From Thiobacillus sp. (GTDB taxonomy: Bacteria > Pseudomonadota > Gammaproteobacteria > Burkholderiales > Thiobacillaceae): a stretch of DNA of 64,000 nt. The notes beneath the pieces were generated by a model. The model saw nothing but the letters and a program-made list of their open reading frames with translations, was not told the DNA's origin and ran no database searches. A program made the translations under genes and the position numbers. This document shows, in pieces, positions 32,771-36,478 of the stretch; position 1 is the first letter of the stretch; each line of letters opens with the position of its first letter. The stretch is taken from contig NZ_JADMKC010000005.1 of assembly GCF_018780105.1 (NCBI RefSeq), positions 16,482 through 80,481 of the forward strand, in the 5' to 3' direction.

Positions 32771-35700
32771 ATGACCCGCATGCTCACCATCGACGGCAAC
32801 GAGGCCGTTGCCCGCATCGCCTACCTCGGCAACGAGATCATCGCCATTTACCCGATCACGCCGGCGTCCAGCATGGGCGAATGGGCCGACGAATGGGCAT
32901 CGCAGGGCCGGCCCAATTTGTGGGGTGCGGTGCCGACCATCATCGAAATGCAGTCGGAAGGGGGCGCCGCCGGCGCATTGCACGGCGCGCTCACGTCCGG
33001 CGCGCTGGCGACCAGCTTTACCGCCAGCCAGGGGCTGCTGTTGATGATCCCCAACCTGTACAAGATCGCCGGCGAGTTGACGCCTTTTGTGTTGCATGTG
33101 GCAGCGCGGACGCTGGCGACGCACGCACTGTCGATCTTTGGCGACCAGTCCGACGTCATGGCCTGCCGCGCCACCGGCTGCGCCATGCTCGCCGCAAACT
33201 CGCCGCAGGAGGCGCAGGATTTCGCGGTCATCGCGCAGGCGGCCACGCTGGCCGGGCGTATCCCGGTGATTCATTTCTTCGACGGCTTCCGGACCTCGCA
33301 CGAGGTGGCGAAGATCACCGCGGTGGAAGCCGATAGCGTGCGCGCCATGCTCGACGCTGATTTGATCGCGGCGCATCGCGCCCGCGCGCTGTCACCCGAG
33401 CATCCGGTGTTGCGCGGCACCTCGCAGAACCCGGACGTGTTTTTCCAGTCGCGCGAACGCGCCAACCCGTTCTACGACCGTTTTCCGCAGATCGTGCAGG
33501 ACGCGATGAACCGCTTCGGCGAATTGACCGGGCGCCATTACACGCTGTTCGAGTATGTCGGCGCGGCCGACGCCGAGCGCGTCATCGTGCTGATGGGGTC
33601 TGGCGCCGAGACGGTGCACGAGACGGTCGATCATCTGCTGGCCCGCGGCGAAAAAGTGGGGGTGTTGAAGGTGCGGCTGTACCGGCCATTTTCGCCAACT
33701 GCATTGCTGGACGCGCTACCGCACACCGTAACATTCATCGCCGTGCTCGACCGTTGCAAGGAGCCGGGCGCCGACGGCGAACCACTCTACAAGGACGTGG
33801 TGACCGCATTGGCGCAGGCGGCGGCGGACGGCGCGCGCAGCATGCCGCGTGTCATCGGCGGCCGCTATGGTCTGGCGAGCAAGGAATTCACGCCCGGCAT
33901 GGTGAAAGCGGTGTTTGATGCGCTGCGCGCTCACTCTCTCCCCAGCCCCTCCCCTCTCAAGGGGGAGGGGCTTGATGTCCCCTCTCCCTTGAGGGGAGGG
34001 GGTGGCCCGCAGGGCCGGGAGAGGGTGGGCGCGCAGCGCCAGGATGGAGTGAAACGCCAGTTCACCATCGGCATCGACGACGATGTCACCCACCTGTCGC
34101 TGCCGTGGGACGAGACGTTCCGCACCGACGCGTCGCGCCAACTCCAGCATGCCGTGTTCTGGGGGCTGGGCGCAGACGGCACGGTGTCGGCCAACAAGAA
34201 CTCGATCAAGATTCTCGGCGAAGCCACCGACCTGCAGGCGCAGGGCTATTTTGTCTACGATTCGAAGAAATCCGGTGCGGTGACGGTATCGCACCTGCGC
34301 TTCGGACCGGCGGCGATCCGTTCCACCTATCTGATCGAGGCGGGCATGGCCGGCTTCGTCGCCTGCCATCAGCCGGTGTTCGTCGAGCGCTATGACCTGT
34401 TGGCACATGCCGCACCCGACGGGGTGTTTCTGCTCAACACCCCGGCGCCGCCGGATCAGGTGTGGGATAGCTTGCCCGAGACTATGCGCGCGCAGATCCG
34501 CGACAAGCGCCTGCATCTGTGGGTGATCGACGCCTACGCCGTGGCCGCCGAGGCTGGCATGGGGCGGCGCATCAACACCATCATGCAGACCTGCTTCTTC
34601 GCCATCTCTGGCATCCTGCCGAAAGACGAAGCGATCGCCGCGATCAAGCATGCGGTCGACAAGACCTACGGTAAAAAAAGCAAGCGCCTGGTCGAGCTGA
34701 ATTACCGCGCCATCGATACGACGCTGGCGGAGTTGCATCAAGTTGTCATCCCGGCGGATACCCTGAAGGGCACAAGCGCCGGGATCCAGTCGGATGAAAA
34801 ACGCTGGGCCCCGGCGTTCGCCGGGGTGACGGATGTCCCCGACTTCGTGCGCGATCTCACCCTGCCGATCTACCAGGGTCACGGCGATCGTCTGCCGGTG
34901 TCGTTGCTGCCGGTAGATGGCACCTATCCGCTGGGCACCGCGCGCTACGAAAAGCGCAACATCGCGCTGGAAATCCCGGTGTGGGAAGCTGACATTTGCA
35001 CCCAGTGCGGCAAGTGCGTGTTCGTCTGCCCGCACAGCGCGATCCGCGCACGCGCTTTCAGCGCTGAAGCTGCAGCCCACGCGCCGCCGGGCTTCAAGCA
35101 CGTGCCGGCCAAGAGCAAGGATTTGCCAGCCGGCACCCGCATCAGCTACCAGGTCGCGCCGGAGGACTGCACCGGCTGCGGCGACTGTGTCGAAGCCTGC
35201 CCGATTCACGACAAGTCGAATGTTTCTCGCAGGGCGGTGAACATGGCGCCGGTCGGCCCCTTGCGCGATCAGGAGCGCGACAATTTCACTTTCTTCCTGC
35301 GCCTGCCCGAGTTCGACCGTAGCATGATTAAGCATGGCACCCTCCCGGGTTCGATGCTGCTCGACCCCTTGTTCGAGTTTTCCGGCGCCTGCGCCGGCTG
35401 CGGCGAAACGCCCTACATCCGTCTTGCCACGCAACTGTTCGGCGACCGCATGCTGGTCGCCAACGCCACCGGGTGTTCGTCGATCTACGGCGGCAATTTG
35501 CCCTCCACACCCTACACGGTGAACGGCGCCGGGCGCGGTCCGGCGTGGAGCAATTCGCTGTTCGAGGACAACGCCGAATTCGGCCTGGGCATGCGGCTCG
35601 CTGCCGACCAGCTGATGGCGTATGCGAAACAGCTGGTGCGTGAACAGGCGAACGACATCGGTGGCGACCTGGCCGAGGCACTGGTCAACGCCGACCAGCG

Positions 35701-36478
35701 CGAGGAGGCGGGCATAGTTGAACAGCGCGGCCGCGTTGCCCTGCTGCTCGACAAACTGGTGGCCTCCCGCCACCCGCGCGCGAAGGAATTCACCAGCGTC
35801 GCCGAATGGCTGATCCGCCGCTCGGTATGGATCATCGGCGGCGACGGCTGGGCCTACGACATCGGCTACGGCGGACTCGACCACGTGCTGGCGTTGCCGT
35901 ACGACGTCAACATCCTGGTGCTCGACACCGAGGTCTATTCCAATACCGGCGGGCAAACTTCCAAAGCGACGCCGATCGGCGCCGTCGCCAAGTTCTCTGC
36001 CGGCGGCAAGGCCACCGCCAAGAAAGACCTCGCCAAGCTCGCCAGCGACTACAGCCACGTCTATGTTGCAACCACGGCCTACGGCGCCAAGGACGTGCAG
36101 ACCCTGCGCGTGTTCCACGAAGCCGAGTCCTACGACGGCCCCTCGCTGATCGTCGCCTACAGCCCGTGCATCGCCCACGGCTACGACCTGCTCTACAACC
36201 AGCGCCAGCAGGATCTCGCAGTGAAGAGCGGGCACTGGCCGCTGTTCCGTTCCGACCCGCGTCTGGCAGAAGCGGGCGGCAATCCCTTCAAGCTCGATTC
36301 CGCCGCGCCGAGCCAGCCGATCAAGGCCTTCATGGAATCGGAAACCCGCTTCGCCATGCTGCAGCGCAGCCATCCCGAGGCCGCGCAACGTTTCCTGGAC
36401 CAGGCGCAGCAGGACGCCGAACGGCGCTTCAAGATGGTTCAGGACATGGCAGCGGCAGAGCGCAAGCCGGACAAGTGA
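32771..36478 (+). CDS. nifJ: Pyruvate:ferredoxin/flavodoxin oxidoreductase
   Basis: IYPITPAS, MQSEGGAAG, GLGADGT, CTQCGKC, CTGCGDC, ACAGCGE, ANATGCSSIYGG, GGDGWAYDIG; two non-canonical in-frame insertions. Confidence 0.97.
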   Translation: MTRMLTIDGNEAVARIAYLGNEIIAIYPITPASSMGEWADEWASQGRPNLWGAVPTIIEMQSEGGAAGALHGALTSGALATSFTASQGLLLMIPNLYKIAGELTPFVLHVAARTLATHALSIFGDQSDVMACRATGCAMLAANSPQEAQDFAVIAQAATLAGRIPVIHFFDGFRTSHEVAKITAVEADSVRAMLDADLIAAHRARALSPEHPVLRGTSQNPDVFFQSRERANPFYDRFPQIVQDAMNRFGELTGRHYTLFEYVGAADAERVIVLMGSGAETVHETVDHLLARGEKVGVLKVRLYRPFSPTALLDALPHTVTFIAVLDRCKEPGADGEPLYKDVVTALAQAAADGARSMPRVIGGRYGLASKEFTPGMVKAVFDALRAHSLPSPSPLKGEGLDVPSPLRGGGGPQGRERVGAQRQDGVKRQFTIGIDDDVTHLSLPWDETFRTDASRQLQHAVFWGLGADGTVSANKNSIKILGEATDLQAQGYFVYDSKKSGAVTVSHLRFGPAAIRSTYLIEAGMAGFVACHQPVFVERYDLLAHAAPDGVFLLNTPAPPDQVWDSLPETMRAQIRDKRLHLWVIDAYAVAAEAGMGRRINTIMQTCFFAISGILPKDEAIAAIKHAVDKTYGKKSKRLVELNYRAIDTTLAELHQVVIPADTLKGTSAGIQSDEKRWAPAFAGVTDVPDFVRDLTLPIYQGHGDRLPVSLLPVDGTYPLGTARYEKRNIALEIPVWEADICTQCGKCVFVCPHSAIRARAFSAEAAAHAPPGFKHVPAKSKDLPAGTRISYQVAPEDCTGCGDCVEACPIHDKSNVSRRAVNMAPVGPLRDQERDNFTFFLRLPEFDRSMIKHGTLPGSMLLDPLFEFSGACAGCGETPYIRLATQLFGDRMLVANATGCSSIYGGNLPSTPYTVNGAGRGPAWSNSLFEDNAEFGLGMRLAADQLMAYAKQLVREQANDIGGDLAEALVNADQREEAGIVEQRGRVALLLDKLVASRHPRAKEFTSVAEWLIRRSVWIIGGDGWAYDIGYGGLDHVLALPYDVNILVLDTEVYSNTGGQTSKATPIGAVAKFSAGGKATAKKDLAKLASDYSHVYVATTAYGAKDVQTLRVFHEAESYDGPSLIVAYSPCIAHGYDLLYNQRQQDLAVKSGHWPLFRSDPRLAEAGGNPFKLDSAAPSQPIKAFMESETRFAMLQRSHPEAAQRFLDQAQQDAERRFKMVQDMAAAERKPDK
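33920..34039. repeat. 120-bp imperfect palindromic element inserted in frame in nifJ
   Basis: Outer 11-bp perfect IR GCGCTGCGCGC/GCGCGCAGCGC enclosing an inverted pair of CCCCTC(T/C)CCC..GGGGAGGGG units; 40 codons, no stop. Confidence 0.8.
34745..34831. repeat. 87-bp REP-like doublet inserted in frame in nifJ
   Basis: GTCATCCCGGC...GCCGGGATCCAG (34745-34789) and CTGGGCCCCGGCGTTCGCCGGGGTGACG (34804-34831); first unit 40/45 identical to the reverse complement of 36856-36900. Confidence 0.88.

What the first reader, a model, noticed from the sequence alone, without database searches (positions are those of the whole stretch)
33920..34039. Second, unrelated 120-bp palindromic element in frame in the same nifJ gene
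Seen: an 11-bp perfect outer IR encloses an inverted pair of C/G-run units and encodes ALRAHSLPSPSPLKGEGLDVPSPLRGGGGPQGRERVGAQR between VKAVFD and QDGVKRQFTIGID, where PFOR normally has about ten residues (recalled). Two different repeat families in one enzyme gene suggests a tolerant insertion hotspot. The G-runs could also form G-quadruplexes or hairpins (inference). Exact boundaries are ambiguous (96-120 bp).
Basis: partly seen in the sequence, partly recalled or inferred. Interest (0 to 1): 0.65.

Follow-up and report, generated by a model that had tools for sequence, protein, structure and literature searches.

The report
Translated BoxC repeat inside PFOR gene
A 126-base palindromic copy of the old, unexplained "BoxC/triplex" DNA repeat sits in frame in a floppy linker of a Thiobacillus pyruvate:ferredoxin oxidoreductase gene. 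It comes and goes, and even flips, among related species without breaking the enzyme, so it is a new example of a known kind of selfish, tolerated insertion.

Summary
**Observation confirmed.** Window 33920-34045 is a strong palindrome inside an intact 1235-aa nifJ/PFOR ORF: a 23-nt outer inverted repeat, two inner hairpins and a mini-hairpin (RNA fold z = -8.75).

**What it is.**
- It is a head-to-head dimer of the BoxC / PIT / TMECO intrastrand-triplex repeat, consensus CCCTCNCCC-N3-6-GGGNGAGGG-N3-GGGNGAGGG (Holder 2015).
- The genome holds about 14 such units; shuffled genomes hold none.
- Its arms match the 5' inverted end plus leader of DUF559-nuclease cassettes.

**What it did to the gene.**
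- 44 codons replace the 7 linker codons of the sister allele. The site lies between Moorella PFOR residues 382 and 385.
- AlphaFold models the insert as coil (pLDDT about 30).
- nifJ stays under purifying selection (dN/dS 0.10-0.18).

**Spread among relatives.**
- About 80 of 112 Thiobacillus PFOR clusters have the empty site.
- 8 carry BoxC-derived inserts, in both orientations and at least six lengths, all in frame.
- 24 carry an unrelated palindromic element within the same linker, and 2 of the 8 BoxC-bearing clusters carry that element as well.

**Other in-frame copies.** Other BoxC units in this genome sit in frame in MetRS and HypF linkers.

**Verdict.** This is a tolerated, unstable, selfish repeat translated as a disordered loop. 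It is a new member of a known kind. The lead on its mechanism is the cross-phylum pairing of BoxC with DUF559.

The parts
32771..36478 (+). nifJ / pyruvate:ferredoxin (flavodoxin) oxidoreductase, intact 1235-aa ORF and the only copy in the genome
   Evidence: Pfam finds POR_N, PFOR_II, POR, EKR, 4Fe-4S and TPP_enzyme_C. It matches PDB 6CIN and 1B0P at E = 0. The genome holds a single match. dN/dS is 0.10-0.18.
33920..34045 (.). Whole palindromic element: an inverted dimer of BoxC/TM units, each with an 11-17-nt leader-like tail
   Evidence: The inverted repeats are and the fold. Both halves align to the 5' end of DUF559 cassettes through GCGCGC(A)AGCGCC(A/T)GGAT.
33920..33942 (.). Left outer arm of the inverted repeat: GCGCTGCGCGC plus the reverse-complemented third arm TCACTCTCTCCC
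   Evidence: pair I1: 23 nt, 91% complementary to 34017-34039.
33931..33970 (-). Left BoxC/TM unit in reverse orientation: third arm 33931-33943 and hairpin 33946-33970
   Evidence: It matches the Holder consensus with at most 1 mismatch per arm (C29:50415-50450 equals window 33934-33969).
33971..33978 (.). 8-nt spacer CTTGATGT between the two hairpins. It reads ACATCAAG in the flipped alleles.
33979..34028 (+). Right BoxC/TM unit in forward orientation: hairpin 33979-34002, atypical 14-nt second loop 34003-34016 holding the mini-hairpin GGCCCGCAGGGCC, and third arm 34017-34028
   Evidence: The alignment shows a 9-nt surplus in loop 2 relative to cassette ends.
34029..34045 (+). Leader-like tail GCGCGCAGCGCCAGGAT, homologous to the sequence between the 5' inverted end and the ATG of class-A DUF559 cassettes
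   Evidence: own C37, L036, L037; L180.
33920..34051 (+). Codons A384-V427: 44 codons that stand in place of the 7 native linker codons (ELSRSAP in sister allele G022)
   Evidence: Searches give the site lengths (180 nt against 69 nt). One search gives the gap in the PDB alignment (query 388 to 428).
34012..34029 (+). The only canonical G-quadruplex motif, GGGCCGGGAGAGGGTGGG
   Evidence: Regex scan of both strands. No structural test was possible.

Best explanation
The element is a gene-less, palindromic pair of BoxC / PIT / TMECO 'intrastrand triplex motif' repeats. Each unit is a hairpin CCCTCNCCC-loop-GGGNGAGGG followed by a second G-arm.

**Origin.** Each half also carries the short leader that follows the 5' inverted end of DUF559 (Vsr-like nuclease) cassettes. 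The element therefore derives from the ends of that cassette family.

**Where it landed.** It sits in a short surface linker after the last helix of PFOR domain II, where 44 codons now replace 7.

**Why it persists.**
- Five of the six reading frames of the unit are free of stop codons.
- Those frames encode Pro/Ser/Gly/Leu/Arg-rich peptide.
- An insert whose length is a multiple of three is therefore read through as a disordered loop and the enzyme survives.

**What it does.** It is a passenger with no function for PFOR. Selection acts only on frame and tolerance. The DNA itself is unstable: hairpin units are gained and lost, and the core flips between its inverted arms.

**Shown:** family identity, copies elsewhere, the empty site, in-frame polymorphism in both orientations, purifying selection on nifJ, and homology to cassette ends.

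**Inferred:** that the loop is translated and harmless, how the element arrived, and that hairpin or template-switch events cause the remodelling.
For: **Family identity.**
- The units fit the published consensus (PMC4666352; regex).
- One of this genome's own units matches 5403 of 5426 E. coli genomes at 80-95% identity, median 15 places per genome.

**Dispersed family.** The loose regex finds 12 units. The atypical right nifJ unit and a truncated copy bring the total to about 14. Five shuffled genomes gave 0.

**Cassette origin.** Both nifJ halves align to the 5' end plus leader of DUF559 cassettes.

**Empty site and polymorphism.**
- 11 of 15 congeners first examined have the empty site.
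- Six genomes in the genus have BoxC inserts at this codon, of +54 to +177 nt, all in frame. Three of them are flipped, with the spacer reverse-complemented.
- Among 112 protein clusters, about 80 are empty, 8 are BoxC-derived and 24 hold the other family.

**The gene is alive.** dN/dS is 0.10-0.18, the same as between empty alleles, and nifJ is single-copy.

**Loop placement.** The gap falls between 6CIN residues 382 and 385. The AlphaFold model gives coil with pLDDT about 30 for the insert, and mostly 75-95 for the flanking domain II and 82-95 for domain III.

**Same behaviour elsewhere.**
- BoxC units lie in frame in MetRS and HypF interdomain linkers of this genome.
- They also lie in frame in bioA of two congeners.

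**Published precedent.** Partial deletion of 'palindromic TM' pairs is described in E. coli.
Against: - Translation of the insert is not shown.
- No target-site duplication or clean boundary can be defined, and 21 native bases are missing. The insertion mechanism is therefore unknown.
- The right unit has a 14-nt second loop instead of the canonical 3 nt.
- The patchy distribution on the nifJ tree needs several same-site gains, transfers or losses. G000 is nested among empty alleles and shows no long co-conversion tract. A purely random passenger model does not predict that.
- In E. coli the family is reported as always intergenic.
- The AlphaFold model is mediocre overall (mean pLDDT 66) and was built on a truncated construct.
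Confidence: 0.8

Rival explanations
1. Homing or short-patch conversion element. The insert is not a random passenger. It is the gene-less form of a DUF559-nuclease cassette that is actively targeted to this nifJ site, and to the bioA site, by nuclease cutting and repair. That would explain its recurrence at one codon in divergent alleles.
For: - TM-bearing nifJ alleles are scattered among empty ones, yet they share odd derived features: the 8-nt spacer and the GGCCCGCAGGGCC mini-hairpin.
- The same bioA site holds either the whole TM-DUF559-TM cassette or a gene-less dimer, depending on the species.
- DUF559 genes are flanked by inverted TM units in 53 of 80 loci across phyla, and on both sides in 31 of 80.
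- TM counts track DUF559 presence in 41 congeners. The median is 7 with DUF559 and 0 without (p = 5e-6).
- The putative catalytic D, E-x-D and Q-H positions of DUF559 (role assumed by analogy with Vsr, not tested) are invariant in all 22 aligned sequences.
Against: - No nuclease activity, cut site or target duplication is known.
- G000 flanks show no co-conversion tract.
- G005 and G046 carry the nifJ insert but have no strong DUF559 match.
- The gene-less form is arranged like abutted ends, [arm3'][H]-[H][arm3]. It is not a simple deletion of the cassette.
- Repeated loss, or ordinary recombination between strains, could give the same pattern.
Confidence: 0.12
2. Adaptive nucleic-acid structure. 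The very stable hairpin is kept because it does something at the domain II/III boundary. It might pause ribosomes to aid co-translational folding, control mRNA decay, or act as a recombination or replication signal.
For: - The fold is extreme (-111.5 kcal/mol, z = -8.75).
- The position is exactly at a domain boundary.
- The palindrome, not the peptide, is what is conserved between flipped alleles.
Against: - About 70% of Thiobacillus PFORs lack any insert here, including the closest sister alleles.
- Lengths and hairpin numbers vary freely, from 1 to 3 hairpins.
- An unrelated element occupies the same linker in others.
- According to the Holder 2015 text, PIT elements showed no promoter or terminator activity in E. 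coli.
Confidence: 0.05
3. Programmed invertible segment. The core flips within a population to switch the linker peptide between two versions.
For: - Both orientations exist between species, with the same outer junctions.
- DUF559 proteins are enriched 14-fold among predicted inversion targets (PMC9881135).
Against: - No invertase is nearby.
- The inverted-repeat arms are only about 23 nt.
- The orientations are fixed differences between species, not shown within one population.
- The peptide sits in a disordered loop with no evident role.
Confidence: 0.02
4. Assembly artefact: a palindrome created by the assembler.
For: Palindromic joins can arise in short-read assemblies.
Against: - The element lies deep inside a 374-kb contig.
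- Homologous inserts occur at the same codon in five other genomes and in seven other protein clusters from independent sources.
Confidence: 0.01

Closest known systems
BoxC / PIT (potential intrastrand triplex) / TMECO triplex-motif repeats (Holder et al. 2015, PMC4666352; earlier Bergler 1992, Bachellier 1999 and Hoyne & Maher 2000 as cited there)
   Same: - The three-block architecture and consensus are the same: CCCTCNCCC-N3-6-GGGNGAGGG-N3-GGGNGAGGG.
- Both are dispersed multi-copy families.
- Copy number varies strongly between close relatives.
- Inverted ('palindromic') pairs occur and get partly deleted.
- There is direct sequence similarity to E. coli copies.
   Different: - Here the units are inside genes and read in frame, whereas E. 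coli copies are reported as always intergenic.
- The right unit has a 14-nt second loop.
- The element carries the leader of a DUF559 cassette.
- The paper found no link to mobile elements, whereas here the units are the inverted ends of DUF559 cassettes.
Rickettsia palindromic elements (RPE), in-frame selfish DNA in protein genes (Ogata et al. 2000, from memory; discussed in PMC3733652 and PMC10969869)
   Same: - Both are palindromic repeats inserted in frame in housekeeping enzymes.
- Both are tolerated in loops and are present or absent among relatives.
- Neither has a known function for the host protein.
   Different: - The sequence family and the host clade are unrelated.
- RPEs have no associated nuclease gene.
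- Here the same site is re-used by two families and the core is found in both orientations.
Intragenic GTAG/CGTC-tagged REPs (Di Nocera, De Gregorio & Rocco 2013, PMC3733652)
   Same: Both are REP singletons or dimers inside ORFs. They encode 20-80 extra residues, often in modular proteins such as tRNA synthetases.
   Different: - The BoxC unit has no GTAG or CGTC tag.
- It has a third arm.
- Its candidate partner is a PD-(D/E)XK-type DUF559 protein, not a RAYT tyrosine transposase.
REPIN-RAYT and other nuclease-plus-hairpin-repeat pairs (PMC3116915, PMC2817692, PMC3333891; Ssn/NTS of Chenal 2025 known to me only from an earlier AI note)
   Same: - A small enzyme gene is bracketed by inverted copies of a dispersed hairpin repeat.
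- Gene-less doublets are scattered through the genome.
   Different: - The enzyme fold differs (Vsr-like DUF559).
- No activity has been shown.
- Here both the cassettes and the doublets enter reading frames.

Membership tests
BoxC / PIT / TMECO intrastrand triplex motif | A 9-nt C-rich arm CCCTCNCCC, then a 3-6-nt loop, then the complementary G-arm GGGNGAGGG | tested here: met
   - Left unit (reverse strand): CCCTCCCCC-TTGAG-AGGGGAGGG.
- Right unit: CCCTCTCCC-TTGAG-GGGAGGGGG.
- Each has at most 1 mismatch per arm.
BoxC / PIT / TMECO intrastrand triplex motif | A second G-arm GGGNGAGGG after a loop of about 3 nt | tested here: inconclusive
   - The left unit meets it (GCTG + GGGAGAGAG, 1 mismatch).
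- The right unit has the arm GGGAGAGGG, but after a 14-nt loop that holds a mini-hairpin.
BoxC / PIT / TMECO intrastrand triplex motif | Dispersed, over-represented multi-copy family, with sequence similarity to described copies | tested here: met
   - The genome has 12 loose or 7 strict matches, against 0 in shuffles and 0 for the reversed pattern.
- blastn matches E. coli copies at 80-95% identity in 5403 of 5426 genomes.
- A canonical BoxC lies beside ycjD/fabI in K-12.
BoxC / PIT / TMECO intrastrand triplex motif | Forms an intrastrand purine-motif triplex as single-stranded DNA (CD/NMR in the paper) | not testable with these tools
   Only hairpin energetics could be computed. Triplex folding is not modelled.
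BoxC / PIT / TMECO intrastrand triplex motif | Intergenic location (a descriptive feature in E. coli, not a definition) | tested here: not met
   The units lie in frame inside nifJ, MetRS and HypF here.
In-frame palindromic selfish insertions (RPE-like / intragenic REP phenomenon) | The repeat is also found elsewhere in the genome, the insert length is a multiple of 3 with no stop, and the host ORF is intact | tested here: met
   All eight BoxC-derived variants are in frame.
In-frame palindromic selfish insertions (RPE-like / intragenic REP phenomenon) | The empty site is present in orthologues, and the insert lies in a loop or linker | tested here: met
In-frame palindromic selfish insertions (RPE-like / intragenic REP phenomenon) | The insert is retained in mRNA and protein | not testable with these tools
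MITE (miniature inverted-repeat transposable element) | Terminal inverted repeats plus a target-site duplication, with ends shared with an autonomous element | tested here: inconclusive
   - Terminal inverted repeats are present.
- The ends are shared with DUF559 cassettes.
- No target duplication is detectable, 21 native bases are lost, and the partner is not a known transposase.
REP / REPIN-RAYT | A GTAG- or CGTC-tagged hairpin with an associated RAYT (Y1 transposase) | tested here: not met
   The units carry no such tag. The associated gene is DUF559. A RAYT search was not run.

The most novel reading that the evidence does not exclude
The nifJ insert would be the gene-less 'abutted-ends' form of a mobile cassette whose only protein is a DUF559 (Vsr-like) nuclease and whose ends are BoxC triplex motifs.

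The nuclease would recognise these folded ends, or the sites they occupy, and drive short-patch copying of the element into specific permissive codons. That would explain three things:
- why the same odd composite reappears at one nifJ codon in divergent alleles;
- why one bioA site carries either the whole cassette or the doublet;
- why BoxC abundance follows DUF559 presence.

This would give the 30-year-old orphan BoxC repeat its enzyme. It would also define a class of mobile element that lives inside reading frames.
Probability: 0.22. Interest if true: 0.85.

Novelty: new member of a known kind. Interest (0 to 1): 0.5.

Why it matters
- It shows that BoxC/triplex repeats, reported as always intergenic in E. 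coli, can be carried inside essential-type enzyme genes and be read through as linker peptide.
- The gene family gives a natural series for study: empty site, 1, 2 or 3 hairpins, both orientations, and a second repeat family within the same linker. These can be used to test how much disordered insertion PFOR tolerates and how palindromes are remodelled in vivo.
- It warns annotators that PSPLRGEG- or GERVG-type peptides in proteins are repeat-derived.
- It adds independent, quantitative support to the DUF559-BoxC pairing. That support comprises homology of the insert arms to the cassette 5' end and leader, alternative occupancy of the same bioA site, and the correlation of copy number with DUF559 presence. 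The origin of BoxC can now be tested at the bench.

Tried and rejected
- **Rfam.** Scanning 33700-34300 at E <= 10 gave only sub-threshold hairpin look-alikes (miRNA precursors and the like). The best was 30 bits against a gathering score of 91. The element is not a known RNA family.
- **Exact pattern in the window.** The only copy in the 64-kb window is the one in nifJ. Other copies lie on other contigs.
- **Conserved protein insertion.** Rejected. The peptide differs between orientations and is absent from most orthologues.
- **Single ancestral insertion shared with G005.** Rejected as sufficient. G000 is sister to empty alleles G022, G278 and G260.
- **Long co-conversion tract from a TM-bearing donor.** Not found.
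- **Simple internal deletion of a DUF559 cassette as the origin.** Rejected, because the arm order is the opposite one.
- **Target-site duplication or common target motif.** None could be defined.
- **Family-2 element in this genome.** Its core has 0 copies here.
- **C14 host ORF.** It has no Pfam hit at 1e-5. Its identity (VWA-like by eye) is left open.
- **Literature.** 25 papers mention DUF559 and none links it to BoxC. Only the inversion-target enrichment is in print.
Full report
**1. The observation**

Window 33920-34039 is as described.
- The outer inverted repeat is 23 nt at 91% complementarity (33920-33942 / 34017-34039). It includes the perfect 11-mer pair GCGCTGCGCGC / GCGCGCAGCGC.
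- It encloses two hairpins, 33946-33970 and 33979-34002, separated by CTTGATGT.
- A mini-hairpin GGCCCGCAGGGCC lies at 34004-34016.
- As RNA, 33910-34050 folds at -111.5 kcal/mol against -72.3 +/- 4.5 for shuffles (z = -8.75).

The element lies in frame in an intact 1235-aa ORF, 32771-36478 (+). That ORF has the full PFOR domain set and is the only nifJ in the genome. No Rfam family reaches threshold.

**2. What the unit is**

Other copies in the genome show the repeating unit. It is a hairpin CCCTCTCCC-TTGA-GGGAGAGGG, 2-3 nt, and then a second G-arm GGGGAGAGGGTGA.

This is the BoxC / PIT / TMECO 'intrastrand triplex motif', consensus CCCTCNCCC-N3-6-GGGNGAGGG-N3-GGGNGAGGG (Holder et al. 2015, PMC4666352).
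- A regex for that consensus, allowing 1 mismatch per arm, finds 12 units in the 3.3-Mb genome. Five shuffled genomes gave 0.
- One of this genome's own units matches 5403 of 5426 E. coli genomes at 80-95% identity, median 15 places per genome.
- A canonical BoxC lies next to ycjD/fabI in K-12.

The nifJ element is two such units head to head with the third arms outward: [tail'][arm3'][H]-8 nt-[H][arm3][tail].

The paper describes such 'palindromic TM' pairs, and their partial deletion to a residual hairpin. It also states that E. coli copies are always intergenic and not linked to mobile elements.

**3. The empty site and the structural position**

The solved Moorella PFOR aligns to query residues 6-388 and 428-1227. 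The surplus therefore falls between 6CIN residues 382 and 385.

Most same-genus orthologues read ...VFDEL-xxxAP-KRQFT.... In G000, 132 nt (codons A384-V427) stand where the sister allele G022 has 21 nt (ELSRSAP), a net gain of 111 nt.

An AlphaFold2 model of residues 250-700 has mean pLDDT 66.
- The helix ending at ...VFDALRA is well modelled.
- The insert is modelled as coil at pLDDT about 30.
- Domain II is mostly at 75-95, with low-confidence loops, and domain III at 82-95.
- The model is only moderate, and the low confidence just after the insert probably reflects the truncated construct.

nifJ is under purifying selection. dN/dS is 0.10-0.18 for G000 against relatives, and 0.10-0.125 between empty alleles.

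**4. Polymorphism**

Across 113 genomes of the genus (Thiobacillus, by the source names), six carry BoxC inserts at this codon.

| Genome | Net gain (nt) | Form |
|---|---|---|
| G000 | +111 | two hairpins |
| G005 | +54 | one hairpin with both third arms |
| G292 | +156 | pair plus an unrelated element in tandem |
| G046 | +135 | core inverted |
| G050 | +111 | core inverted |
| G041 | +177 | core inverted, three hairpins |

- In the flipped alleles the spacer reads ACATCAAG, the reverse complement of CTTGATGT, while G046 keeps the outer junctions seen in G000. The core therefore turned over in place.
- All variants keep the frame, and the two orientations encode different peptides.
- Among 112 PFOR protein clusters, about 80 are empty and 8 are BoxC-derived (27-67 residues between the anchors).
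- 24 carry an 18-residue insert of an unrelated palindromic family (PHKGTPTFYGLKPVKDRM) a few codons away, and 2 of the 8 BoxC-bearing clusters carry it too.

On a tree of 2.1 kb of nifJ flanks, the BoxC-bearing alleles are scattered.
- G000 is nested among empty alleles G278, G022 and G260.
- G050 and G041 sit far away.
- G000's flanks remain closest to empty G022 up to the junction: 98% in the last 60 nt and 93% in the next 60 nt. The figure is 92% for BoxC-bearing G005.
- Yet the inserts share odd derived features, the 8-nt spacer and the mini-hairpin in loop 2.
- One gain plus vertical descent therefore does not fit. Same-site re-acquisition, very short-patch transfer or repeated loss is needed. 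This remains unresolved.

**5. Where the element comes from**

The genome has two DUF559 (PF04480, Vsr-like fold) genes.
- The one at C37:215302-215610 is bracketed by inverted BoxC units, [H][arm3]-gene-[arm3'][H].
- Both halves of the nifJ element align with the 5' end of such cassettes, beyond the BoxC unit and into the leader that precedes the ATG. The nifJ tail reads GCGCGCAGCGCCAGGAT and the cassette leader reads GCGCGCAAGCGCCTGGAT. A congener cassette matches 54 nt at 93%.

The pairing is general.
- In the genus, 9 of 10 best DUF559 loci have BoxC on both sides.
- Across families of the class, 15-19 of 29 loci have BoxC nearby. Density is 3.1 per kb within 150 nt, against 0.14 per kb further out.
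- Across phyla, 53 of 80 loci have BoxC nearby and 31 of 80 have it on both sides. In most of these the upstream unit is forward at about -45 to -75 and the downstream unit is reverse at about +10 to +45.
- In 41 congeners, strict BoxC counts have median 7 (range 1-59) with DUF559 and median 0 (range 0-8) without (p = 5e-6). The reversed-pattern control found 0 everywhere.
- That comparison has two caveats: the genomes are phylogenetically related, and their completeness varies.

No paper in the library links DUF559 with BoxC. DUF559 is only listed as enriched among predicted inversion targets.

Earlier AI notes of this scan hold the same lead from other genomes. I reached it independently here, but those notes are not independent evidence.

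**6. Other in-frame copies**

In this genome, BoxC units also lie in frame in two confirmed enzymes and one unidentified ORF.
- MetRS, between the anticodon domain and the tRNA-binding domain.
- HypF, between the zinc fingers and the YrdC-like domain.
- A 795-aa ORF without a Pfam hit.

Five of the six frames of the unit have no stop codon; only the forward frame that reads the loop as T-TGA does. I derived this by reading the sequence.

In congeners, the whole BoxC-DUF559-BoxC cassette is read through in frame inside bioA (five genomes) and inside a DNA methyltransferase. In two further genomes, the same bioA site carries a gene-less doublet arranged like the nifJ one.

**7. Mechanism**

*Best-supported reading (0.8).* This is a gene-less, unstable BoxC doublet derived from cassette ends. 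It is tolerated because it landed in a short surface linker, has a length that is a multiple of three, and encodes a Pro/Ser/Gly-rich disordered loop. It does nothing for PFOR.

*Rivals.*
- Nuclease-driven homing or short-patch conversion (0.12).
- An adaptive nucleic-acid structure (0.05).
- A programmed invertible segment (0.02).
- An assembly artefact (0.01).

*Not shown.*
- Translation of the loop.
- Any DUF559 activity.
- The insertion chemistry. No target duplication is seen, and 21 native bases are lost.

*G-quadruplex idea.* It rests on one motif, 34012-34029. For this family, NMR in the literature favoured a triplex over a G4.

**8. Novelty**

In-frame palindromic repeats are known, for example RPE and intragenic REPs. 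BoxC is also known. A translated BoxC doublet in PFOR is a new member of that kind.

Three features go beyond the usual case: re-use of the same linker by two families, the in-place flip, and the homology to DUF559 cassette ends. I set interest at 0.5.

The bold reading is that DUF559 is the enzyme of BoxC and drives site-specific spread. I put it at about 0.22.

Noticed in passing
G000:C37:215141-215681 (outside the window): An intact DUF559 nuclease gene (215302-215610, minus strand) is bracketed by inverted BoxC units used as roughly 40-nt inverted ends. A further head-to-head BoxC pair with a 53-nt spacer lies just downstream. The stop of the upstream gene and the C-terminus of DUF559 both run into the repeats.
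   Followed up: yes
L043, L044, L041, L049, L050 (bioA of G052, G010, G047, G008, G041); L178, L179 (bioA of G050, G274): A whole BoxC-DUF559-BoxC cassette is read through in frame inside bioA, between ...GFGRTGTMFAxEQA and PDFICLSKGLTGGY, giving ORFs of 604-650 aa. In two other species the same site holds a gene-less BoxC doublet, also in frame.
   Followed up: partly
G000:C1:4437-4474; G000:C37:232010-232108; G000:C14:180818-180855: BoxC units lie in frame in the MetRS linker before the tRNA-binding domain. A tail-to-tail pair lies in HypF between the zinc fingers and the YrdC-like domain. Another unit lies in a 795-aa ORF with no Pfam hit.
   Followed up: partly
L003 (G009), L004 (G020), L006 (G001), L087 (G292); proteins P0003, P0004, P0014-P0117: A second, unrelated palindromic element has a DNA core ACGGGCTGAAGCCCGT and encodes PHKGTPTFYGLKPVKDRM. 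It occupies the same nifJ linker in 24 of 112 clusters, and 2 of the 8 BoxC-bearing clusters carry it too. It sits at another nifJ site in G001. It has no copy in G000.
   Followed up: partly
L005, L007, L010, L011, L027 (5' of nifJ); L002, L003 (3' end): Several congeners have further repeat-like stretches in the open frame just upstream of the nifJ start (TTLHPQGVGRGSKDAKAS) and at its 3' end (PEGEHPEGHKDLAAYPSRVQ). nifJ therefore seems generally surrounded by small repeats in this genus.
   Followed up: no
L040 (G014:C3:24931-27562): A BoxC-DUF559-BoxC cassette lies in frame inside a large N6-adenine DNA methyltransferase-like ORF (NPPF motif, open frame over 870 aa to the contig end).
   Followed up: no
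G000:C14:442397-442900; L045-L047, L051: A second DUF559 subfamily is followed by a different repeat of triplex-type layout, CCCCCC-TTTGAAAAA-GGGGGG-CA-GGGGGG, in inverted pairs. This suggests that each DUF559 lineage has its own repeat.
   Followed up: no
L085:4040-4840 (E. coli K-12 ycjD-fabI spacer): ycjD ends in TCACCCTCTCCC. A degenerate duplicate of its last roughly 45 nt lies about 60 nt downstream of its end, and a canonical BoxC about 170 nt downstream.
   Followed up: partly
window 34745-34831: This is the 'first' palindromic element of nifJ, in the linker between domain III and the EKR domain. It adds about 7-10 residues relative to congeners (GIQSDEKRW...). It was handled in an earlier report of this scan.
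   Followed up: no
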